This document shows positions 53,864 through 64,000 of a DNA stretch of 64,000 nucleotides, one piece after another. Positions within the stretch are counted from its first letter, which is position 1. The number at the start of each line of letters is the position of its first letter. This stretch comes from Spirochaetes bacterium ADurb.BinA120 (GTDB lineage Bacteria; Spirochaetota; UBA4802; UBA5368), in assembly GCA_002069125.1 (NCBI GenBank), contig MVZN01000001.1:71696-135695 (forward strand), given 5' to 3'. The position numbers were made by a program, and so were the translations under genes. The notes under the pieces are model-generated. The model searched no databases. It was not told the DNA's origin and saw only the letters and a program-made list of their open reading frames with translations.

Positions 53864-56697
53864 AATCATTCCGCTTTTCAATTGTAATAACGGTGGCGCT
53901 CTTCACGATATGGGGATCGAGCGCTTACGCCATGGGCGCACAGGCCCTCTACGAGCAGGGCACCGAGGCGTTCAGGACCGGAAATTACGGTTCCTCCGAG
54001 CTTCTGTTCAGAAAGATAATCGATTCGGGTGATGGGATTGAGTACCGCGACCGCGCCTGGTACTACCTGGCCCTTTCGATCTTCAATCAGAAGAAATACA
54101 AAGACGCGATATTCGAGTTCAACCGCTTCCTGCTCATCTGCACGGCGCAGGACCTGTGCCATGAGTCCCGCTACTGGATAGCGGAATCCAATTATTATCT
54201 GAAAAATTACATCCGCGCCATCGAGGAGTTCAAGCGGTTCATCTCCCAGAGTCGCAACGAGATGCTTACAGTGGCGGCCCTGGACAGGATAGGCGAGATA
54301 TACTTCCAACAGGCGCGATACGACGAGGCGGTAATTGAATGGAAGGAGGCCATCAACCAAAATTCCGATGTCTCCCGAAACGCCCAGCGGGTCGTGTGGA
54401 TAGGCAGGGCGCTCTTTCTAAACGAAGATTATGACCAGGCGCAGAAACTACTCGAGTCGCTGATAAGCTCGAAAACTGACAGGGCCGGTGACGCCCAGGC
54501 CCGGATGATAATAGGAAGGATTTACCAGTTAAAGGGAAGACACCGCGACGCGCTAAGGGCGTTTTACGGCATACCGGAGACAATGCTCAGGGAATCGCCC
54601 TACTGTGACGCTCAGTATTTCAAGGCGATGTCCTCCATTGCCCTGGGAGACACGTATTCCGCGAAATCCTTCCTCGAATCCTTTCTGCTAATCGGAAAGT
54701 CTTCGGAATGGTATTACCACGCCAAATACGAGCTCGGAAACATTCTCATCAGGCAGAATAACGAAAAGGAGGGCATAGAGCTGCTCGAAGAGGTGCGCAG
54801 CTCGACACGCATAATGGCCCTGCGAAGCCGAGCGGCGCTCGTACTGAGCGGTATTTACCTCAAGAGGGATCCAGCCGAGGCCATACCCTACCTGGAGGAC
54901 GCGGTTTCGCTGCCCGACCAGGAGGAGCAACGGGGGGCGCTATCCCTTCTGGCCAGGGTTTATGTGGATGTAAAGCGTTATGAGGACGCCGAAAGGATAC
55001 TCTCGCTTCTCATCAACACCTATCCCGAAAATGAGGGGAATGACCAGGTCCAGTTCCTCATCGCGAGGGTCGCGCTGGAACGCAACGATCCCGAGGCGGC
55101 CATTAACGGATTCAATAAAATAAGGGCGATCAACCCCTCATCGCCATATCTCAGGGAGGCCGTTTATTATCTCGGGATGGCGCACGCGTTGAAAAATGAA
55201 TATATACAGGCGGTCGAGCTTCTAAACCGGTACGTATCGTCGGCGGGTGCCGAAAAAAGATACGATGCCCTGGTGCGGCTTCTTGAGTTATACACCGGAG
55301 CCTCTGATCTTAAAAACGCTGAGAAAACGGCGCAGATCCTGCAATCCGCGCATGCGCGCCATCCCGGAGTGGAGAGCGTGTTATATGATTTCGCACAGGA
55401 GCTCGGCCGAAAGGGCGGTAACAACGCCCGCTATCTTCAGTCTATCGTCGGCAATTATCCGCGTTCGGAGAGCGCCGGCAGGATCCTTTTTTTATGGGCG
55501 GGCGCGGGCTTTGCCGCGGGCGATTACGCGCGTGCCGAGCAGTTTTACCGGCAGTATCTCTCGGTACAGGGCCGGGAGATGGCGCAGGAGGCCCTTCTGG
55601 GCCGGGTGGAATGTCTGTTCCATCTGAAACGCTTTCGCGAGATCATCGTTCTCGCCACGGACGAATCGCGCCCCGAGCTGGATGACGCCAGAGCCGCGAG
55701 CATGGCGCTGTATCTCGCGCGTGCATACTATTTGGAAAAGAACCCGGAAATGGCGTACCGCACGCTGTCGGCACTGCCGGCCACGGCGCTGGAGGAAGGC
55801 GATATGCTGATTTTGGCGAAAGGGGCATTAAAAGCCGGCGATATATGGACTGCGCAGGCCGTACCTGCCCGGCTTGTCGCGGGATCGGAAGCCTATGCAG
55901 AATCGCTGTTTATTCTTGGAATATATTATTCCGCCGAAGGCAGGGAGGAGATTTCGATCGATTATTTCTCGAAGCTCGCGGCGGAATGCCCCGACTCGGC
56001 GATCATAGACGACGCAAGGATCGAAATGGCCGGTCTTTACGCAAACGGCCGCAGATACGGGGAGGCGCTTGAGGTTCTCGACCGAATGTCGGCGGCAAAA
56101 CACGCGGACCGGGCGCTTATCCTTAGAATAACGGCCCTGTTCCGAACGGGCAAGATTGAAAAAGCCGTCGAGATGACGAATTCTGGAATTCGAAGCATCC
56201 TGAAATATCCAGCAGGCGAAACGGTCGTAAAAGAGGCGCTTTTTTACTATTATCTAAAGGGCGATCCGGTAAATTTCGCCCTGTACTCGACTTATTTAAA
56301 GAGGTACTCGGGCAACGACCCGCTTCTCAACTATCTGTCCGGGAAGATGTATTTCGAACGGCAGCAGTACAATCAGTCCAGTTATTATTTCGGGAGGCTT
56401 GCCGCGAATGAAAGCCAATACAGGGAGGAGGCTTTGTTTTTTCTGGGAATTATTAGCATGACCTATCATAAAAACGCGCGCATTGCGGCCGGCCATTTTC
56501 AGCGATTGATCGACACCTCCGATCCCGACAACCAATTCGCGATGAAGGCGAGGATCAATCTGGCGATATTGATGAACGAAAGCGCAAATTATACGAAGGC
56601 CGAAGAGTTGCTCAGAGAGGTCGAATCGGGGCCCGAAAACGCGGCAATCAAGGTCCAGGCGGAGAATCTTTCGGAGTATTATAATTTCAGAAAGTAA
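53860..56697 (+). CDS. large secreted tetratricopeptide-repeat (TPR) protein
   Basis: ATG at 53860 overlaps cinA stop (ATGA), signal peptide, ~900 aa of TPR-like helical repeats (track ORF opens at 53728 inside cinA). Confidence 0.8.
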   Translation: MKSFRFSIVITVALFTIWGSSAYAMGAQALYEQGTEAFRTGNYGSSELLFRKIIDSGDGIEYRDRAWYYLALSIFNQKKYKDAIFEFNRFLLICTAQDLCHESRYWIAESNYYLKNYIRAIEEFKRFISQSRNEMLTVAALDRIGEIYFQQARYDEAVIEWKEAINQNSDVSRNAQRVVWIGRALFLNEDYDQAQKLLESLISSKTDRAGDAQARMIIGRIYQLKGRHRDALRAFYGIPETMLRESPYCDAQYFKAMSSIALGDTYSAKSFLESFLLIGKSSEWYYHAKYELGNILIRQNNEKEGIELLEEVRSSTRIMALRSRAALVLSGIYLKRDPAEAIPYLEDAVSLPDQEEQRGALSLLARVYVDVKRYEDAERILSLLINTYPENEGNDQVQFLIARVALERNDPEAAINGFNKIRAINPSSPYLREAVYYLGMAHALKNEYIQAVELLNRYVSSAGAEKRYDALVRLLELYTGASDLKNAEKTAQILQSAHARHPGVESVLYDFAQELGRKGGNNARYLQSIVGNYPRSESAGRILFLWAGAGFAAGDYARAEQFYRQYLSVQGREMAQEALLGRVECLFHLKRFREIIVLATDESRPELDDARAASMALYLARAYYLEKNPEMAYRTLSALPATALEEGDMLILAKGALKAGDIWTAQAVPARLVAGSEAYAESLFILGIYYSAEGREEISIDYFSKLAAECPDSAIIDDARIEMAGLYANGRRYGEALEVLDRMSAAKHADRALILRITALFRTGKIEKAVEMTNSGIRSILKYPAGETVVKEALFYYYLKGDPVNFALYSTYLKRYSGNDPLLNYLSGKMYFERQQYNQSSYYFGRLAANESQYREEALFFLGIISMTYHKNARIAAGHFQRLIDTSDPDNQFAMKARINLAILMNESANYTKAEELLREVESGPENAAIKVQAENLSEYYNFRK

Positions 56698-56801
56698 ACA
56701 GCCGGAGAAGCCGGGCCGATACCGGGAGCGGCCCTTCTAGATAGTGTGAGGAAACGGGACGGTCGTCCCGTCATGATTGCGAAAGCACAAGGGGAAACGA
56801 C

Positions 56802-57257
56802 ATGAAAAAGAGAAGGATCGCGGTCGTACATGGCCCCAATCTCAATATGCTGGGGAAACGCGAGGTCGGCATATACGGGAGGCTGACTCTCGATGAGTTG
56901 AACTCGTCAATAAAAACCGAAGCCGCGGCCGCAGGCGCGGACGTGGAATTCTTCCAGTCGAACGGGGAGGGCGAGATCATAGATTATATTCATGGAATAG
57001 GCCACCTCGACGGAATGATCATAAACCCGGGGGCATATACGCATACCTCGATCGCTCTGCGCGATGCGATAGCCGCCGTAAAAATTCCGGCGGTGGAGGT
57101 GCATCTGTCCAATATTCACTCCAGGGAGGAGTTCAGAAGGCAATCGATGATCGCTCCCGTGTGCGTCGGCCAGATCAGCGGGTTCGGCCCATACTCGTAT
57201 ATAGCGGGCCTCTTGGGGCTTCTCGACTTTCTTAAGGGGGCTTCCGGCGCCAAATGA
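56802..57257 (+). CDS. aroQ: type II 3-dehydroquinate dehydratase
   Basis: [17 protein letters not shown]-terminus. Confidence 0.92.
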
Positions 57258-58321
57258 AACTCGATAAACTGAGAAAGCGGCTCGAACGCGAGGAAAGGCT
57301 TCCCTTCCTGATTCTGGATCTTGTCAATATTCGATACCTCACCGGATTCGAGGGCTCCTCCGCCCTGCTGCTCATGACGAAAGACGGCGATTATTTCATA
57401 TCGGATTCCAGATACGAGGAATACGCGCGGTCCATCATTCCAGCGGACATGGAGTTTGTCCTGCTTAAGGGGCCATGCGAAAGGACGGTCGGAAGAATAC
57501 TGAAACGCAAACGCGTTAAAAGGCTGTTCGTGGAGGACCATAGCGCGACGCTCTTTCAGGCCGGCCTTCTCGCGAAGGCGATCGCGCCGGTCTCCCTATG
57601 CGAGGGCGGCAGCCCGGCCAATGAATTGAGGATGGAGAAGGGGCCACAGGAGATCGAGGCCATCCGCGCGGCGGTGGACCTGGCCGACAGTTGCTTTTCC
57701 CACCTTCTCTCGATCGTGAGGCCCGGGTTGATCGAATGGGACGTTTCAATTGAGATAGAATACTTCTACAGGAAAAATGGTTGCAGGAAATCTTCCTTTG
57801 ACTCAATTGTCGCGTCCGGGCCGGGGTCCTCCATGCCGCATTATATCACCTCCATGACCCGAAGGATCGAAAAGGGGGATGCGCTTCTCATCGACATGGG
57901 GTGCGAATTCAGGGGATATAATTCAGACTTGACAAGAACGATCTTCGTCAATAGCGTTGATGACGACCTTCGCAGGATATACGGAATTGTCCGGGACGCG
58001 CAGGAGCGTGCGATAGAGTTCGTCCGGCCGGGAGTACGATGCGGGGAACTCGACGCCGTCGCGCGCGGGCTGATTGCGGAGGCCGGATTCGGTAAGTTTT
58101 TCGGGCACTCGCTTGGACACGGCGTTGGCATGGAGGTCCACGAGCTCCCGGCAGTTAAAACCGGTAGCCGGACGAGGATAGGGAAGAATACGGTAATAAC
58201 GGTGGAACCGGGAATATATATCCCGGGCAGGGGCGGTGTTCGGATAGAGGATGTGGTGCTGGTCACCGACGGAGGCTCCGAAATACTGACGAAATCATCG
58301 AAAGACATTCATATACTGTGA
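57254..58321 (+). CDS. pepP: Xaa-Pro aminopeptidase (M24B)
   Basis: M24 metal ligands ([27 protein letters not shown]). Confidence 0.88.
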
Positions 58322-58331
58322 GGGGCGCTCC

Positions 58332-58895
58332 ATGATTACAAGCAACGATTTCAGGAGGGGAATGGTCATAAAGCTGGACGGGAACCTCTATTCCGTGGTG
58401 GAATACCAACATGTGAAACCGGCCCGCGGCGGGGCCTTTGTCCGAACCAAACTTCGTTCCCTGATGAGAGGCGCCATCGTCGATAAGACTTTCAGGGGGG
58501 GCGAGAAGGTGGAGGACGTTCGAATCGAAACGAAAAAGATGCAGTATCTATACGATGAAGGGGACTCGCTTGTATTCATGGATACCGAAAGCTACGAACA
58601 GGAGCCTGTGGCGAAATCATATGTCGGGAATATCCTGGATTACATCAAAGAGGGCGATACCGTCGATATATCCATTTATGAAGGTAAACCGATCAGCATC
58701 GAACCGCCCACATTCGTAAACTTGAAGGTCGTTTACGCGGAGCCCGGGCTAAAGGGCGATACAGCCACGAACGTAACCAAGCCGGTCAAGGTAGAGACTG
58801 GGGCGATGATCCATGTCCCGCTGTTCGTAAACGAATCCGACGTAATAAAAATCGATACCCGCACTGGTGATTACGTGGAAAGGGTCAAGCAGTGA
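58332..58895 (+). CDS. efp: elongation factor P
   Basis: 187 aa, KPARGGAFVRTKLR loop region. Confidence 0.95.
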   Translation: MITSNDFRRGMVIKLDGNLYSVVEYQHVKPARGGAFVRTKLRSLMRGAIVDKTFRGGEKVEDVRIETKKMQYLYDEGDSLVFMDTESYEQEPVAKSYVGNILDYIKEGDTVDISIYEGKPISIEPPTFVNLKVVYAEPGLKGDTATNVTKPVKVETGAMIHVPLFVNESDVIKIDTRTGDYVERVKQ

Positions 58896-59119
58896 TGAGC
58901 TTCCTGGGCGCCGCCGGCGAATGGATTAACAGAAACCCCGGAAAAGCGGCCGGCGCGTTCGCCGGATTTCTTTTCGGGGTTCTTCTCTTTACGATCGGGG
59001 TGTTAAAAACCGTATTAATCTTAATCTTCGTCCTGGTGGGCTATATAATCGGCAAGAGCAGGGACGACAATCTTTCAATAATTGAAGAGATAAACGAGCT
59101 GTTCCGCGGGAAGCGATAA
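58892..59119 (+). CDS. small integral membrane protein (~75 aa)
   Basis: ATGA-coupled to efp; two hydrophobic helices. Confidence 0.5.
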   Translation: MMSFLGAAGEWINRNPGKAAGAFAGFLFGVLLFTIGVLKTVLILIFVLVGYIIGKSRDDNLSIIEEINELFRGKR

Positions 59120-59177
59120 CTCGCGGCCGCATAGGACCGCGTGATCGCCGGCGAACCTGAATACCCGTTGGCATCGA

Positions 59178-60362
59178 GTGAATACGAAAAATCCCCTGCT
59201 GAAAGAGGCGCTGCGACTGGCCGGCTTGAAGCGGCACGAGGATGCCGTACTTGTCCTGGAAAGACTGGCCGCGGCCGCGCATCCAGACCCTCATGCGCTT
59301 TTCCTTCTCGCGGTGGAGTATCTGCAGTCCGGCGCCATCGGCAGGATAGAGCCGGTTCTTAATAGACTGCGCTCTCTGGACCGAAATTATCCTCCTCTGG
59401 TACGGTTGGAACTCTTCCTCTACCTGAAAGGCGCCGAAAGCGCGGCGGCCGCCCTTACCCGCTATATCGAGGCGATACAACGCTTTCCAAACGACAGACA
59501 TATCATTCGCGCCGTATCCGCGATACGCAGGGCGCATGATTTCGTTGAATTCCAGCGCTCAGCCCGCCTGAACGATTTTGTTCCGCTCCAAATACCTACT
59601 GATAGGCGCAGGGGCGTTATCCCCGCGATAAGTAAACCTGGACGCAGCCGTGTTTTCCGAAGATGGCTTCCAGCCGCAATCGCCGTCATCTCCATTTGCG
59701 TCTTTGTATTCATCGGCCTGCGTTACGGGCGGGTTTTGGTCGGCCTGATTGACCCCTACACGAAACGCCCCTCGAGGGATTTCAACCGAATCGATATGGC
59801 GACAATCGACGGCAGCAGGCACGATCTGATCGATAAGATACGAAGGGAACGTACACCGGTATTCTATTATTCGAATGAAGAGGTCGTTGCCGATTTCAAT
59901 AACGCCCGCTCTTTGCTTAAAAAGGAACTTTATAACGAGGCCCTTCTCCTCATTAACAAAATACTGAACAGTAACGCGGGATTTTCCGTCAAGGAGAGGG
60001 CGGAATTCCTGAAAAGTTACACCCTTTCGATCGAGGAGCGCGTATTCGAGCCGGTGGCATTCGACACGGTTGCCCGAAGTCCGTACCTGTACGGCGGGTT
60101 CTCCGTGGAATGGAGCGGAACCGCGGCCAACGTAAAGAGAAAGGACGGAAAACTCATATTCAATCTGATGATGGGCAAGGGACCGGCAAATACCTTTACC
60201 GGGATCGCGGACGTCTATTGCGAAAGGGATGTGCGGGATCTAGTCAATGGGGATGTCGTACTGATCAGGGCCCTGTTTGTTAACAATCCGGGCGGATATA
60301 ATCGGCCATACCTGGTCGCCAGGGAGGTGCGGCTTAAAGACGGTGGGAGCACCGGAAGATGA
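59178..60362 (+). CDS. hypothetical protein with N-terminal TPR-like helical region, one TM helix and a C-terminal domain
   Basis: 394 aa, coupled (ATGA) to the DUF362 gene. Confidence 0.5.
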   Translation: MNTKNPLLKEALRLAGLKRHEDAVLVLERLAAAAHPDPHALFLLAVEYLQSGAIGRIEPVLNRLRSLDRNYPPLVRLELFLYLKGAESAAAALTRYIEAIQRFPNDRHIIRAVSAIRRAHDFVEFQRSARLNDFVPLQIPTDRRRGVIPAISKPGRSRVFRRWLPAAIAVISICVFVFIGLRYGRVLVGLIDPYTKRPSRDFNRIDMATIDGSRHDLIDKIRRERTPVFYYSNEEVVADFNNARSLLKKELYNEALLLINKILNSNAGFSVKERAEFLKSYTLSIEERVFEPVAFDTVARSPYLYGGFSVEWSGTAANVKRKDGKLIFNLMMGKGPANTFTGIADVYCERDVRDLVNGDVVLIRALFVNNPGGYNRPYLVAREVRLKDGGSTGR

Positions 60363-61528
60363 CGGCGAAGACCCGTGTTTCCATACGCCGTTGCGAAGGG
60401 TATGATGATAATGAACTCGATGAAGCATTCGTACGGGCACTCCACGATATCGGGTTCGATTCCGGGCGGTTTCGCGGCGCCCGCGTCGCTCTCAAGCCGA
60501 ATTTATTGAACGCCAGCGCTCCCGACAAAGCGGTGGTTACCAATCCTGCGTTCTTCGCGGCGGCCGTCCGCATAGTGAAGGCCCACGGCGGAACCCCTGT
60601 TCTTGTGGAGTCCCCTGCCTTCCAGAGCCTCGAAAGGGTCGCCGCGAAAACAGGTTACGATGCGATCATTGCCGCCGAGAGACTGGAGGTGTGGGACAAC
60701 AGGTCCGTTGCGGTTATCATGAACGACGAGGCAAGGAGGTTTAAAAGGTTCGAGGTCGCCAGGCCGCTCCTGGAGGCGGACATTCTGTTTAACCTGCCTA
60801 AACTCAAGACACACGCCATAACGCGGCTGACCTGCGCTGTTAAAAATCTTTTCGGGACGATACCGGGTCTTGCCAAATCGAGATGGCATATGAGGGCCGG
60901 AACCGGGGATGAGTTCCCGGAATTGATACTGGATCTTTACGGTGCGCTCTCGGCCATCTTCTCCGGAAAAAGAAGCATGCTTCACCTGGTGGATGGAATT
61001 ATGGGGATGGAGGGGGATGGGCCCGGCCCTTCCGGTACGCCGCGAAAAATCGGCGTGGTGCTTGCCGGCACCGACGCCGTCGCGGTGGACAGTGTTGCCG
61101 CCGGACTGATCGGTCTCGATTCCGCCAATATCGCCACCATAAGCTCGGCCGCGGCGAGGGGACTCGGTGTCGGAAGAATGGAAGACATCGAGATAAAAGG
61201 AGTAGAGCTTCTTGACATAGCGGTTCGGGATTTCAAAGTGCCCGCTTCCAGGCTTTCCTCCCGCCTCCGGGATTACGTGCTAAAGATGGATGCTCTCCGC
61301 AATCTCTGGGTGGAAAAGCCCTTGCCCTCGCCGGACCGTTGTACGCTGTGCTATCAGTGCAGGACCATCTGCCCGGCGGAGGCCATCGGGACTGCGGAGG
61401 ACGGAGCAAGCGTTCCGAAATATGATTATACGGCGTGTATAAGATGTTATTGCTGCATGGAGATATGCCCCGAGGCGGCCATACGCCTCGAGAAGGGAAA
61501 ACTTCAGCGGATCATGGACTGGTTTTAA
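60359..61528 (+). CDS. DUF362-domain protein with C-terminal 2x[4Fe-4S] ferredoxin domain
   Basis: two CxxCxxCxxxCP motifs at C-terminus (CTLCYQCRTICP, CIRCYCCMEICP). Confidence 0.75.
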   Translation: MTAKTRVSIRRCEGYDDNELDEAFVRALHDIGFDSGRFRGARVALKPNLLNASAPDKAVVTNPAFFAAAVRIVKAHGGTPVLVESPAFQSLERVAAKTGYDAIIAAERLEVWDNRSVAVIMNDEARRFKRFEVARPLLEADILFNLPKLKTHAITRLTCAVKNLFGTIPGLAKSRWHMRAGTGDEFPELILDLYGALSAIFSGKRSMLHLVDGIMGMEGDGPGPSGTPRKIGVVLAGTDAVAVDSVAAGLIGLDSANIATISSAAARGLGVGRMEDIEIKGVELLDIAVRDFKVPASRLSSRLRDYVLKMDALRNLWVEKPLPSPDRCTLCYQCRTICPAEAIGTAEDGASVPKYDYTACIRCYCCMEICPEAAIRLEKGKLQRIMDWF

Positions 61529-61686
61529 GGCGGTGAAAGAGGGAGGGTGCTCAGCGAGGTTTTTTCTTTTTTCTGAGATAGTGATATATCAAATTTTCAG
61601 ATGATGAAAGAACCCGGTGCCCATGTCGGCTGCGCCCTTGAAACAAAGAGAATAAGGGTTTTTGGGGACGGATAAAATACCGCCTT

Positions 61687-61698
61687 GCAATTGCAAAT
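61687..61698. promoter_or_regulatory. 12-bp perfect palindrome TTGCAATTGCAA upstream of ridA
   Basis: self-complementary 12-mer ~20 nt upstream of the ridA start. Confidence 0.35.
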
Positions 61699-61720
61699 TT
61701 TTTCCTAAAGGAGCAAAAAA

Positions 61721-62101
61721 TTGAAAAAGATAATATCCTCAAACAAGGCCCCGAGGGCCATAGGGCCGTATTCACAGGCGGTTCTGGCGGGCAATTTACT
61801 GTTTATTTCAGGGCAGCTGCCGCTGGACCCGGAAAGCATGAAAATCAAAGGAGCCACCGCCGCCGAGCAGGCCGAACAGGTATTCAAGAATATTGATGCC
61901 ATACTGAAGGAGGCCGGGCTGGGGTTTAATCATGTTGCCAAAATGACCGTCCTGTTGAAAGATATGGCCGATTTTACCGCGGTTAATGAAGTCTACGCGC
62001 GGCAGTTTACGGGCGATTACCCGGCACGCGCCGCGTATCAGGTCGGCGCCCTGCCAATGGGGGCGCTGGTCGAAATAGAGGCTATCGCCATTATACAGTG
62101 A
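61721..62101 (+). CDS. ridA: RidA/YjgF family reactive-intermediate deaminase
   Basis: 126 aa; AAGGAG RBS; TTG start. Confidence 0.9.
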   Translation: MKKIISSNKAPRAIGPYSQAVLAGNLLFISGQLPLDPESMKIKGATAAEQAEQVFKNIDAILKEAGLGFNHVAKMTVLLKDMADFTAVNEVYARQFTGDYPARAAYQVGALPMGALVEIEAIAIIQ

Positions 62102-62287
62102 GACTTCAATACTACGAGTGAAAGGCCGTTTTGGATAGCATAATACCTCCGGGGAAAGCCCGGCGCGCAACCTTTGGCGAGAGAGGCGGCAATCCGTTTC
62201 CGGAATAAAAACTCCATTTTATCGAAGGCCGATATTTCTATTGACACTTCTGCCAGTTTTGGTGTTATTGTAAAAGCGGTGTACGAC

Positions 62288-62440
62288 ATGAAAAGAAAAA
62301 AGGATGACAGGAAAAAATTGTTGAAGTCCATACGAACGGGGATACGCCTAAAAACGCCTCCGCCCAAAAAAATTGCGCCCGAAACGGTATACAACAGAAA
62401 AAAGAACAGGCCCGTCGAGATTGACGGGCCTTATTCGTAA
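62288..62440 (+). CDS. possible small highly basic protein (~50 aa, K/R-rich)
   Basis: internal ATG of track ORF 62174..62440 preceded by a TTGACA-N17-TTATTG promoter-like element. Confidence 0.25.
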   Translation: MKRKKDDRKKLLKSIRTGIRLKTPPPKKIAPETVYNRKKNRPVEIDGPYS

Positions 62441-62532
62441 TAGCCAGAAAGCCCATATTGGAGCTTTCCGGAGGACCGGGAGGATTTGCGGGTGATATTA
62501 CTCCCATTCGCGATGGAGTAGGGGCATATCCC

Positions 62533-62994
62533 ATGAACACCAGCAGGCAAAAAGCCAAACGGCTAAACGATTTCGTGCTTCAGAAAATGGAAGAGGCGCG
62601 GATCATCGGTTACGCCAAAACGCCCTATGGAATGTCGACGGCCGGAGAGCGCCTGGATAGATGGCGGTCCCTGGGTATGCACCATGAGCTCCTTACACGC
62701 TACCATGGCTTCGCTGAATTCGCCCCAACCAATTATATCGACATTCGGGTTCCGGTTACGGCCACCGGAGCGCGCCCTAATGATGCGGAAGAACAACCTT
62801 ATTTCTGGAATGGTATGATAAACGAATATGTAGCGGAGATGGCGGTGTGGTGGGCCTTCGATCTTCTCACACCGGGCGAGGCTGTGGAATTCATGCTTGC
62901 CCACAAGCCTTCTGTCCAGTTCGGTTATATGGAGGGGCGAAGGAGGGATGAGCTAAGCGTTCAATTTGAAAATGGTTTGTGGATAGTCCGGTAA
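62533..62994 (+). CDS. hypothetical protein
   Basis: ATG with GGAGTAGGGG RBS inside track ORF 62458..62994. Confidence 0.45.
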   Translation: MNTSRQKAKRLNDFVLQKMEEARIIGYAKTPYGMSTAGERLDRWRSLGMHHELLTRYHGFAEFAPTNYIDIRVPVTATGARPNDAEEQPYFWNGMINEYVAEMAVWWAFDLLTPGEAVEFMLAHKPSVQFGYMEGRRRDELSVQFENGLWIVR

Positions 62995-63127
62995 GCATTA
63001 AACTGTCGGCAAAGCCACTGCTCTGCTTATGGGATCGAAAAAGCAAAAAGGACCGAAAAGGATTGCCGGGATCGCGGAGAATATGCATCCCAGCCCGAAG
63101 TCTATGAGCGGCAATCATAAAAAACAA

Positions 63128-63152
63128 AAAGGACGGAAACCTTACCGTCCTT
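63128..63152 (-). terminator. rho-independent terminator (ggacgg-N8-ccgtcc + U-tract) on minus strand, immediately 3' of the tRNA-like fragment
   Basis: minus-strand reading: cgtgaaaGGACGGtaaggtttCCGTCCtttttgtttttt. Confidence 0.8.
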
Positions 63153-63157
63153 TCACG

Positions 63158-63210
63158 TAGCGGAGGAGGGACTCGAACCCCCGACACGCGGATTATGATC
63201 CACAAAACCA
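63158..63210 (-). other. tRNA 3'-end fragment (canonical T-arm GGGGG-TTCGAGT-CCCTC plus acceptor 3' strand; no complementary 5' acceptor strand found): displaced tRNA 3' remnant / att-like site
   Basis: minus-strand ...gtcgggggttcgagtccctcctccgct-a matches the tRNA T-stem/T-loop/acceptor layout. The 5' partner (agcggag-like) is absent within 100 nt, so this is not an intact tRNA. Confidence 0.6.
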
Positions 63211-63370
63211 CGTCGCCTGTTAAGTATTACCGCCTTATACAGTACTACCAGAGGCCGAAAAAGTCAATAATTAATTGTTAAAAGTCGGAAAATGGAATTG
63301 CATTTTTTACGATGTTCTCATAGCGTTCTCATGGTATAGTTGAGTCGAATAGAGCGTTTCACTCCCGGGG

Positions 63371-63736
63371 CTACTTCCATTGAATATCCATGTGGTCGCC
63401 GTTGATAAGCATTTTGCAGTGTGACAGAATCGACATGCCGAGTATAAAGTGGATTCCGTTCGGGAGACTGCTTACGCGGATTATGGGGGATTTGCGCCGT
63501 TTACCATCGAATTCGATGTCGCTGATATAGGTAAACGCGTTGCGAGTCTGCATGTCGATGGTGCTGACGCGATCCCAGCTTATGGGCCTGATCTGAAGAG
63601 TGGTAATGACCTCATAGGTACAGGCGCAGGTCATGCTCCCCGTGTCGATTAGTCCCCTAAGGTTCCTTTTCTTTTTCTTGCCGATAACGACGACATCGAA
63701 TTCGAAAAGACCATTTGAGCTGCGCCTGACAATCAT
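63371..63736 (-). CDS. retropepsin-like (clan AA) aspartic protease, single domain
   Basis: 121 aa with LIDTGS catalytic motif and ILGMSIL flap/dimerisation region. Confidence 0.75.
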   Translation of the reverse strand: MIVRRSSNGLFEFDVVVIGKKKKRNLRGLIDTGSMTCACTYEVITTLQIRPISWDRVSTIDMQTRNAFTYISDIEFDGKRRKSPIIRVSSLPNGIHFILGMSILSHCKMLINGDHMDIQWK

Positions 63737-63742
63737 GTCGTG

Positions 63743-63988
63743 CTAAAGCGTAACAAGGGAAGAGAGTATCGTGATTTCCATCGAGACCTTTTTGACGGCG
63801 AAACCGACATCCTCGCCGAATTTCTTTATGCCGATAGCGACGCACTCGTCCAGTGTGTCGCAAAAGTGGGCCTCTCCGTCGTTGAAAGCGACGTGCTTTC
63901 CTTTGTGTTCTTTCATGTAGCCCGGAAGCACATCGTTGAGCTTGATGCTGTTGATCATCACTTCCGATTCGAGCTTTTTGAGGTTCAT
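63743..63988 (-). CDS. small protein of unknown function (81 aa) encoded immediately upstream of the retropepsin-like gene
   Basis: GGAGG RBS; 6-nt gap to the protease gene (operon). Confidence 0.55.
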   Translation of the reverse strand: MNLKKLESEVMINSIKLNDVLPGYMKEHKGKHVAFNDGEAHFCDTLDECVAIGIKKFGEDVGFAVKKVSMEITILSSLVTL

Positions 63989-64000
63989 AGTGTCCTCCCC

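What the first reader, a model, noticed from the sequence alone, without database searches (positions are those of the whole stretch)
63128..64000. Displaced tRNA 3' end with its native terminator marks an attR-type junction; an integrated element appears to extend past the window end
On the minus strand there is a perfect tRNA T-arm plus acceptor 3' strand directly followed by a strong rho-independent terminator. No 5' acceptor strand or D-arm can be paired upstream, so this is the 3' remnant of a tRNA gene rather than an intact tRNA. That is the classic arrangement left when a tRNA-targeting integrative element restores the tRNA at its far end and displaces the native 3' end. Consistently, the DNA to the right (63250-63370) is AT-rich with short direct repeats (gttctcat x2) and is followed by non-backbone-like genes (retropepsin-like protease plus a small protein).
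Basis: partly seen in the sequence, partly recalled or inferred. Interest (0 to 1): 0.55.

Follow-up and report, generated by a model that had tools for sequence, protein, structure and literature searches.

The report
Prophage end at a split tRNA-Met
The stretch is one end of an ordinary 31-kb prophage that inserted into a methionine tRNA gene, leaving the gene's original last 42 bases and its terminator stranded here while the phage's own copy keeps the tRNA whole at its far end.

Summary

- **The fragment.** Window 63158-63199 (minus strand) is the last 42 nt of an elongator-type tRNA-Met(CAU), from A32 of the anticodon loop to discriminator A73. The operon's own intrinsic terminator follows at 63127-63154. 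No tRNA is callable here.
- **The empty site.** Prophage-free contigs of the same species carry an intact tRNA-fMet/tRNA-Met pair at exactly this position. They diverge from the window starting at base 63200.
- **The element.** To the right lies a complete prophage: repressor pair, DnaB, terminase, portal, major head protein and tail fibre. I reconstructed it from contigs that overlap at 99.99-100% identity.
- **The far end.** The prophage ends 31,009 bp away with an excisionase-like gene and a tyrosine integrase (PF00589). The integrase start is 88 nt downstream of the regenerated tRNA-Met, in the same direction. The same 42 bp recur there as a direct repeat.
- **Relatives.** Integrases at 80%, 51% and 29% identity also sit just downstream of tRNA genes (Met, Arg, Pro).

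This is the textbook tRNA-targeting integrase arrangement with an anticodon-loop-type site. The phage has no close deposited relative, but the mechanism is ordinary. The exact crossover point and present-day mobility are inferred, not shown.

The parts
62533..62994 (+). Host flanking gene (153 aa, no family), convergent with the tRNA operon. It was used to find occupied and empty alleles of the site.
   Evidence: The identical protein lies next to the intact tRNA pair in the empty-site contigs L147, L148, L150 and L152-L155. It lies next to the prophage in L149 and L151. No Pfam, PHROG or NCBIfam hit.
63117..63154 (-). Native intrinsic terminator of the tRNA-fMet/tRNA-Met operon (stem-loop 63127-63154, T-rich tail 63117-63126). 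The insertion separated it from the operon.
   Evidence: Terminator scan. Fold -14.9 kcal/mol, z = -3.5. Identical sequence directly follows the intact tRNA-Met in the empty site L148. A homologous terminator follows it in the related species L071.
63158..63199 (-). Displaced 3' 42 nt of tRNA-Met(CAU), A32 to A73. This is the attR core and one copy of the 42-bp direct repeat that bounds the prophage.
   Evidence: It is the only sequence shared by attR (window), attL (L144 9871-9912) and attB (L148).
63200..63335 (-). Phage-derived P arm of attR: AT-rich and non-coding.
   Evidence: Divergence from the empty site starts exactly at 63200. From the repeats to the core, the arm is closely similar (most columns identical in alignment A1) to the arm of a different element in the same site (L156). 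Beyond that the two are unrelated.
63314..63332 (-). Candidate arm-type integrase-binding sites; this role is inferred.
   Evidence: Unique in the window, 0.01 expected. Conserved exactly in L156. A 16/19 copy lies in the P' arm at L144 9990-10008, with 0 expected, but it overlaps the integrase ribosome-binding site and ATG.
63195..63223 (-). Promoter-like site TTAACA-17-GATCAT that straddles the P arm/core boundary and points across the core. Weak and hypothetical.
   Evidence: 9 of 12 matches, and shuffles give 0.8 such sites per region, so it is not significant by itself. Both hexamers and the spacing are kept in L156.
63371..63736 (-). First prophage gene: a 121-aa retropepsin-like aspartic protease with a DTG motif.
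   Evidence: Pfam Asp_protease_2, 27.3 bits against cut-off 24.3. NCBIfam clan_AA_DTGF, 28.9 bits, below its cut-off of 57.35. Weak PADLOC PDC-M08B hit, E = 2.5e-5. No PHROG.
63743..63988 (-). Second prophage gene: 81 aa, no family. It lies 7 nt upstream of the 121-aa gene.
   Evidence: It is always found together with the 121-aa gene in the contigs.
63200..64000 (.). Left end of a 31,009-bp prophage that runs on to window-equivalent 94,208, past the end of the window.
   Evidence: Overlap chain of contigs at 99.99-100% identity and the composite sequence. Gene content.

Best explanation
Window 63158-63199 with its terminator is the attR (P-O-B') junction of a 31-kb temperate phage. The phage integrated by tyrosine-integrase site-specific recombination into the second gene of a tRNA-fMet/tRNA-Met(CAU) operon.

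**How it works.**
- Recombination between that copy and the chromosomal gene (attB) inserts the phage inside the gene.
- At the integrase end (attL), the host 5' part joined to the 42-bp core gives a tRNA-Met identical to the original.
- At the other end, which is this window, a 42-bp core copy and the native terminator (the original gene's 3' end) are left as a non-functional orphan next to the phage P arm.

**Shown here:** the two 42-bp direct repeats, the base-precise insertion relative to empty-site alleles, the intact tRNA next to integrase and an excisionase-like gene, and the phage gene set.

**Inferred:** that strand exchange occurs in or near the 7-nt anticodon loop; that the ATGAGAAC repeats are arm-type integrase sites; and that the prophage can still excise.
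For: **The fragment is real tRNA sequence but not a tRNA.**

**Empty site in the same species.** L148 and six other contigs read: 153-aa gene, terminator, tRNA-Met, tRNA-fMet, promoter, Patatin/UDG.
- The window differs from L148 at only 5 positions over 56533-63199, then diverges from exactly 63200.
- A related species (L071) is syntenic with the window and has the same intact arrangement.

**Far junction (L144).** It reads tRNA-fMet, intact tRNA-Met, an 88-nt P' arm, then the integrase ATG in the same direction.
- Identity of L144 to the empty site starts exactly at the terminator-side edge of the 42-bp core.
- It continues at 99.7% over the 5.8 kb of shared host flank.

**Continuity.** Window, L140, L139/L142/L143 and L144 overlap at 99.99-100% over 1.2-12.8 kb. 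The composite has the core at 63158 and 94167, and ARAGORN calls the two tRNAs at c[94166..94319].

**Recombination genes.**
- Integrase: PF00589 at 88.8 bits, phrog_1 at E = 1.6e-48, and catalytic residues aligned to XerA 5hxy.
- The neighbouring 84-aa protein matches HTH_17 and excisionase PHROGs.

**Phage gene set.** cI/cro-like pair, Lar, DnaB, terminase, portal, major head protein, ejection protein and tail fibre.

**Relatives.** Integrases at 80%, 51% and 29% identity also lie about 90-150 nt downstream of tRNA-Met, tRNA-Arg(TCT) and tRNA-Pro(GGG), in the same direction.

**Published principle.** This is the principle behind the Islander database (PMC4383910). Anticodon-loop-to-3'-end att sites are a recognised class (bioRxiv 10.1101/2020.11.02.365908).
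Against: - I did not read both junctions on one molecule. The 31-kb span is a chain of three metagenome contigs from sister samples, joined by overlaps at 99.99-100% identity.
- Contig lengths imply that single contigs do span it, for example ERZ27257505 k141_24336 (113 kb) and ERZ27257498 k141_93005 (50 kb). I could not fetch their far parts.
- No free or circular attP form was found in IMG/VR, so present-day excision is unproven.
- The integrase ORF is about 80 aa longer at its C-terminus than its relatives, and this tail overlaps the excisionase-like gene. I did not examine this.
- attL, attR and attB are identical across the 42 bp, so the crossover point cannot be located.
Confidence: 0.96

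Rival explanations
1. It is the same kind of junction, but the prophage is a fixed, defective remnant that can no longer excise. The fragment would then be a fossil scar rather than a working attR.
For: No attP-form contig was found in IMG/VR. The integrase has an unusual C-terminal extension that overlaps the excisionase-like gene.
Against: - The two 42-bp repeats are perfect.
- The integrase catalytic residues are present and an excisionase-like gene is present.
- The structural and replication gene set is full.
- The same species occurs with and without the prophage, differing at only 5 of 6,667 flanking bases.
- Prophage copies from different samples are 99.99-100% identical.
Confidence: 0.12
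2. It is a tRNA pseudogene that arose from local duplication and decay of a tRNA gene, unrelated to any mobile element.
For: The 5' half is absent.
Against: The empty-site allele has the whole tRNA at exactly this position. The missing 5' half, with its promoter and partner tRNA-fMet, lies 31 kb away next to an integrase. The break is base-precise rather than gradual.
Confidence: 0.01
3. It is a functional but unusual tRNA-like RNA, for example an arm-less tRNA that the standard finders miss.
For: The permissive Rfam search aligns 63158-63217 to the tRNA model end to end, at 22.5 bits and E = 0.036.
Against: The score is below the gathering cut-off of 29. The anticodon arm is deleted and 2 of 7 acceptor pairs are broken in that alignment. 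The fold is no better than shuffles. The 5' part is phage arm sequence that differs in L156.
Confidence: 0.01
4. It is an assembly chimera that joins phage and host DNA at a conserved tRNA sequence.
For: Several contigs end inside the prophage or close to the attR junction (L008/L016 directly; the contig of L144 by length arithmetic).
Against: The identical junction appears in at least eight independent assemblies from ENA, JGI and NCBI. The complementary junction also exists. A 42-bp repeat is too short to mislead these assemblers systematically.
Confidence: 0.01

Closest known systems
tDNA-integrated prophages and genomic islands of the Islander type, with an anticodon-centred ('A') att site (Hudson, Lau and Williams 2015, PMC4383910; Williams 2002, cited there)
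   Same: A tyrosine integrase is used. The target is a tRNA gene. The element restores the gene, and the displaced 3' fragment marks the far end. [quoted passage not shown] The integrase lies directly downstream of the regenerated tRNA.
   Different: Nothing in the architecture differs. The host is an uncultured bacterium, probably a spirochaete, judging from the labels of the syntenic MAG L071 and of the integrase relatives. The phage has no close deposited relative: integrase at most 27% and terminase at most 33% identity.
Phage lambda Int/Xis/attP system (from my own knowledge)
   Same: It has a tyrosine integrase with SAM-like N-terminal domains and a small excisionase-like HTH protein beside it. 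The attP has AT-rich arms of roughly 135 and 88 bp with repeated short motifs. The layout is attL next to int and attR far from int.
   Different: Lambda's attB is intergenic with a 15-bp core; here the core is 42 bp inside a tRNA gene. Here attP lies upstream of int rather than downstream. The role of the arm sites is untested. Int and xis lie at the opposite end of the prophage from the repressor genes rather than beside the early-left genes.
Phages such as P22 (tRNA-Thr) and HP1 (tRNA-Leu), which integrate at the anticodon stem-loop (from my own knowledge; not checked here)
   Same: The identity block begins at the anticodon stem-loop and covers the rest of the tRNA. The anticodon stem could supply the inverted core-type sites.
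   Different: The target tRNA is different (Met, CAU) and the integrase is unrelated at the sequence level. No biochemical mapping exists here.

Membership tests
tRNA-gene-targeting tyrosine-integrase integrative element (Islander definition) | An intact, regenerated tRNA gene at one end of the element | tested here: met
   ARAGORN calls tRNA-Met(CAU) at L144 9838-9913, which is composite c[94166..94241]. It is identical to the tRNA of the empty site.
tRNA-gene-targeting tyrosine-integrase integrative element (Islander definition) | A displaced fragment of the same tRNA gene, as a direct repeat, at the other end | tested here: met
   A 42-bp perfect direct repeat at window 63158-63199 and at composite 94167-94208.
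tRNA-gene-targeting tyrosine-integrase integrative element (Islander definition) | A tyrosine integrase encoded inside the element | tested here: met
   PF00589 at 88.8 bits (cut-off 27.1), and phrog_1. R, HxxR, H and Y align to XerA 5hxy.
tRNA-gene-targeting tyrosine-integrase integrative element (Islander definition) | An empty-site allele showing precise insertion (attB = B-core-B') | tested here: met
   Seven same-species contigs and one related species carry the uninterrupted site. The breakpoints are exact to the base.
tRNA-gene-targeting tyrosine-integrase integrative element (Islander definition) | Both junctions on one replicon | tested here: inconclusive
   Shown only through overlapping contigs at 99.99-100% identity. 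The lengths of several contigs imply that they span the element, but their far ends could not be fetched.
Anticodon-loop ('A') att sublocation class | The identity block starts at the anticodon loop and extends to the tRNA 3' end | tested here: met
   The block runs from A32 to A73. The class is described in PMC4383910 and in bioRxiv 10.1101/2020.11.02.365908.
Anticodon-loop ('A') att sublocation class | Strand exchange takes place within the 7-nt anticodon loop, flanked by the stem as inverted core sites | not testable with these tools
   attL, attR and attB are identical over all 42 bp, so no polymorphism locates the crossover. The phage arm does keep GTGGA opposite TCCGC, which is compatible with this feature.
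Lambda-type attP with arm-type integrase sites | Repeated arm-type motifs on both arms that are bound by the integrase N-terminal domain | tested here: inconclusive
   ATGAGAAC occurs twice in the P arm and is conserved in L156. A 16/19 copy lies in the P' arm, but it overlaps the integrase start region. Binding was not tested.
Functional temperate phage | A complete set of packaging, head, tail, replication and immunity genes | tested here: met
   Terminase, portal, major head protein, structural and ejection proteins, tail fibre, DnaB and a cI/cro-like pair are present. No lysis genes were identified among the ORFs I scanned.
Functional temperate phage | Excision or induction is observed | not testable with these tools
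   No attP form was found in IMG/VR. Read-level data are not available here.

The most novel reading that the evidence does not exclude
Integration may rewire integrase transcription.

- **In the circular phage,** the promoter-like site in the P arm (TTAACA-17-GATCAT, window 63223-63195, conserved in the second element L156) would read across attP into int and xis.
- **In the lysogen,** that promoter is stranded at attR. It then points only into the orphan tRNA fragment and the host terminator, and might make a ~60-nt tRNA-half-like RNA.
- **Meanwhile,** int now sits 88 nt downstream of the host tRNA-fMet/tRNA-Met promoter. What lies between is a conserved hairpin with no U-tract on the sense strand.

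Integrase expression would then depend on whether the element is integrated, and on read-through from a growth-rate-controlled tRNA operon. A precedent for circular-form-specific integrase promoters exists in ICEclc (Pcirc; from my own knowledge).
Probability: 0.12. Interest if true: 0.35.

Novelty: new member of a known kind. Interest (0 to 1): 0.12.

Why it matters
- **Boundary.** The result gives a base-precise left boundary for a 31-kb prophage, with core 63158-63199 and phage DNA from 63200 onward. Genes right of 63200 should therefore be annotated as phage cargo rather than host backbone.
- **No tRNA call.** It explains why no tRNA should be called at this position.
- **A reusable set of sites.** attB, attL, attR and a reconstructed attP are now defined for a tRNA-Met-specific integrase from an uncultured, probably spirochaete, lineage. 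This could serve as an integration tool or as a strain marker.
- **A hotspot.** The site is used by at least three related elements.

Beyond that, this is a textbook case and teaches no new biology.

Tried and rejected
- **tRNA and RNA family searches of the window.** ARAGORN and Rfam at gathering score found nothing. The permissive Rfam tRNA hit was rejected as an artefact made of the real 3' half plus phage arm sequence.
- **Search for the free-phage attP in IMG/VR.** The P arm + core pattern found only the integrated junction. The core + P' arm pattern found nothing.
- **Fetching one contig with both junctions.** The 90% cluster representative P0001 is only 98% identical and sits on a 20-kb contig, so I did not pursue it.
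- **Literature.** Williams 2002 (PMC100330) is not held. I used PMC4383910 and a bioRxiv paper that summarise it.
- **Is the P arm upstream of the core a decayed tRNA 5' half?** MAFFT lines up a GGCGG, but L156 lacks it and the similarity is too weak to claim.
- **A 12-nt match of part of the core** inside the 121-aa gene has E = 0.02 and was treated as chance.
- **The 81-aa, 192-aa, 108-aa and 178-aa phage ORFs.** Each was scanned with Pfam, PHROGs and PADLOC, and all but the 178-aa ORF also with NCBIfam. No informative hit was found. The only hit, NCBIfam mtrD for the 108-aa ORF at E = 0.0099 and far below its cut-off, was disregarded.

Full report
**1. What is in the sequence**

Read on the minus strand, window 63199→63158 is ATCATAATCCGCGTGTCGGGGGTTCGAGTCCCTCCTCCGCTA. 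This parses as follows:
- a 7-nt anticodon loop, A-U-CAU-A-A;
- the 3' strand of the anticodon stem, UCCGC;
- a 5-nt variable loop;
- a complete T-arm, GGGGG/UUCGAGU/CCCUC;
- the acceptor 3' strand, CUCCGCU;
- the discriminator A.

Three bases further on comes a 10-pair hairpin followed by TGTTTTTTAT. The terminator scan reports it at 63154-63127, and it folds at -14.9 kcal/mol with z = -3.5.

The sequence is far from chance. A 23-nt part of it has one match in the window against 0.00 expected, even when 3 mismatches are allowed. The 41-mer is an exact match in at least 120 stretches of DNA from species-representative genomes of many phyla. In all nine loci checked, the match lies inside an ARAGORN-called tRNA-Met(CAU).

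There is no tRNA gene here:
- ARAGORN calls none in the 64 kb.
- Rfam at gathering score reports nothing.
- The only permissive Rfam tRNA hit scores 22.5 bits against a cut-off of 29. It deletes the anticodon arm and breaks two acceptor pairs.
- The 75 nt that would hold a tRNA fold no better than shuffles, z = -0.01. The intact gene found elsewhere folds as a cloverleaf.

**2. The empty site**

The host gene just left of the terminator (153 aa, window 62533-62994) occurs as an identical protein in many metagenome and MAG contigs.

In seven of them (L147, L148, L150, L152-L155), the terminator is preceded by two ARAGORN-called tRNAs. One is an elongator-type tRNA-Met(CAU). The other is an initiator-type tRNA-Met, with GGG/CCC in the anticodon stem and a C1·U72 mismatch. 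Beyond them are a TTGACA promoter region and then Patatin and UDG genes.

The window and L148 differ at only 5 positions over window 56533-63199. From exactly 63200 they are unrelated.

A MAG labelled 'Spirochaetes bacterium' (L071) is syntenic with the window at 72-82% identity. It has the same uninterrupted arrangement of tRNA pair plus terminator.

**3. What lies to the right**

At least eight independent assemblies from ENA, JGI and NCBI continue past the window's end. In order they encode:
- the 121-aa and 81-aa genes, then 192-aa and 108-aa ORFs with no family;
- a divergent cI/cro-like HTH pair and a Lar-like protein;
- an HTH_36 replication protein, DnaB and a ParB_N-like protein;
- a large terminase.

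I walked on through IMG/VR contigs. These gave a portal, a major head protein, virion structural proteins, a 1,514-aa protein with an ejection-protein N-terminus, tail-fibre proteins, a 178-aa ORF, and an 84-aa HTH_17/excisionase-like protein. The last gene is a 466-aa tyrosine integrase:
- PF00589 at 88.8 bits;
- phrog_1 at E = 1.6e-48;
- R, HxxR, H and Y aligned to XerA 5hxy.

**4. The far junction**

A JGI contig (L144, Ga0302236_1000101) carries that integrase at 100% identity. Immediately upstream, in the same direction, are the promoter, tRNA-fMet and an intact tRNA-Met, then 88 nt of phage arm and the integrase ATG.

Identity between L144 and the empty site starts exactly at the terminator-side edge of the 42-bp block. 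It continues at 99.7% for the 5.8 kb of shared host flank.

The contigs overlap as follows:

| Overlap | Length | Identity |
|---|---|---|
| window / L140 | 1,225 nt | 100% |
| L140 / L139 | 12,751 nt | 1 mismatch |
| L143 / L144 | 11,398 nt | 100% |

A composite built from them has the 42-mer at 63158 and at 94167. This gives an element of 31,009 bp, counting one repeat copy, with the tRNAs at c[94166..94319]. The 42 bp are the only sequence common to attL, attR and attB.

**5. How it works**

This is site-specific integration by a tyrosine integrase into a tRNA gene. The phage attP holds a copy of the tRNA's 3' 42 nt. Recombination with the chromosomal gene places the phage inside the gene. 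The 42-bp core at the integrase end keeps the tRNA identical to the original. A core copy and the native terminator, the original gene's 3' end, are left at the other end, which is this window.

The principle is the one stated in PMC4383910. [quoted passage not shown]

In the lambda convention (from my own knowledge), the window holds P-O-B', that is attR. The integrase-side junction is B-O-P', that is attL.

*Shown:* the repeats, the precise breakpoints, the integrase, the excisionase-like gene, and the regenerated tRNA.

*Inferred:*
- that strand exchange is in or next to the ATCATAA loop (the phage arm keeps GTGGA opposite TCCGC);
- that the tandem ATGAGAAC motifs are arm-type integrase sites;
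- that the prophage is still mobile.

On the ATGAGAAC motifs (63314-63332): they are conserved exactly in a second element's arm, L156. A 16/19 copy lies in the P' arm, but it overlaps the integrase start region.

On mobility: support comes from perfect repeats, intact recombination genes, the presence/absence polymorphism within a population that differs at 5 of 6,667 flanking bases, and 99.99-100% identical copies across samples. No attP form was found in IMG/VR.

**6. Relatives**

- An 80%-identical integrase (P0002, on a 1.07-Mb contig) again sits about 90 nt downstream of the tRNA-fMet/tRNA-Met pair, beside Patatin/UDG. It belongs to a different prophage.
- A 51% relative follows tRNA-Arg(TCT).
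- A 29% relative, from Spirochaeta isovalerica, follows tRNA-Pro(GGG).

So the subfamily keeps the layout of a tRNA followed by the integrase gene while changing its target. This is as described for tRNA-targeting integrases.

The site is a hotspot. L156 shows yet another element in the same position in the same species.

**7. Rivals**

- *Decayed tRNA pseudogene:* excluded by the attB, attL and attR comparison.
- *Arm-less functional tRNA:* excluded by the same comparison and by the sub-threshold, structurally broken Rfam alignment.
- *Assembly chimera:* excluded by the number of independent assemblies that share the junction.
- *Defective prophage:* the only live variant. I rate it about 0.12.

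**8. Comparison and novelty**

The architecture meets every testable defining feature of an Islander-type tDNA-integrated prophage with an anticodon-centred site. The one reservation is that both junctions were linked through overlapping contigs rather than read on one molecule.

The phage itself has no close deposited relative. Its best integrase match is 26-27% identical (Aaphi23, Thermus phages). Its best terminase match is 33% identical (THSA-485A).

It is a new member of a known kind. The finding is correct, well read by the first stage, and ordinary.

**9. Limits**

- The host's taxonomy rests only on database labels of a syntenic MAG and of integrase relatives.
- The crossover point, arm-site function, excision activity and any transcriptional consequences are untested.

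Noticed in passing
L156 6610-7315 (JGI Ga0208939_1001749); corresponds to window 63158 onward: A different element occupies the same tRNA-Met site in the same species. Its P arm closely matches the window's from the ATGAGAAC repeats to the core. Beyond that it is unrelated and encodes a DUF2335 protein instead of the 121-aa protease.
   Followed up: partly
L157 4757-6407 (ENA ERZ25039527 contig_31774, 1.07 Mb): A third, related prophage (integrase 80% identical) sits at the same tRNA pair beside Patatin/UDG in a related genome. It encodes a PF24729 Acb2/Tad1-hairpin protein, a family linked to anti-defence functions (that link is from my own knowledge).
   Followed up: partly
L144 9923-9949 and L157 4921-4949 (P' arm, between tRNA-Met and int): A 10-12-bp hairpin directly after the regenerated tRNA is kept in both phages through two compensatory changes (GTAAcTaCTG/CAGtAgTTAC against GTAAgTgCTG/CAGcAcTTAC). 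It has a T-rich tail only on the antisense strand, so it looks like a terminator for transcription running towards the tRNA, not for the tRNA operon.
   Followed up: partly
L144 9913-9920 against L071 7216-7223: The first 8 nt of the phage P' arm (ATAAACAA) are the same 8 nt that follow tRNA-Met in the related species' empty site. The window's own host has CGTGAAAG there. This suggests that the attP copy was captured from, or matches over 50 nt with, an L071-like host.
   Followed up: no
window 63371-63988 (minus strand): The two genes next to attR are a 121-aa DTG aspartic protease and an 81-aa protein with no family. They look like prophage-end cargo. The protease has a weak hit to the PADLOC candidate defence family PDC-M08B (E = 2.5e-5); the partner has none.
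   Followed up: partly
L002 2030-3859 (ENA ERZ2648042 NODE_729): One sample's copy of the prophage has a different immunity region. It also has a 397-aa RVT_1+GIIM protein (a group II intron reverse transcriptase) between the 192-aa ORF and the early genes.
   Followed up: no
window 63195-63223 (minus strand): A promoter-like TTAACA-17-GATCAT straddles the phage arm/core boundary and points across the core. Both hexamers are conserved in L156. In the circular phage it would face the integrase; in the lysogen it faces only the orphan fragment and terminator.
   Followed up: no
L143 11577-11830 / L144 11150-11398: The integrase ORF runs about 80 codons past the point where its relatives end (466 aa against 375-399 aa). 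This tail overlaps the excisionase-like gene in another frame. The 80% relative shares the length (468 aa).
   Followed up: no
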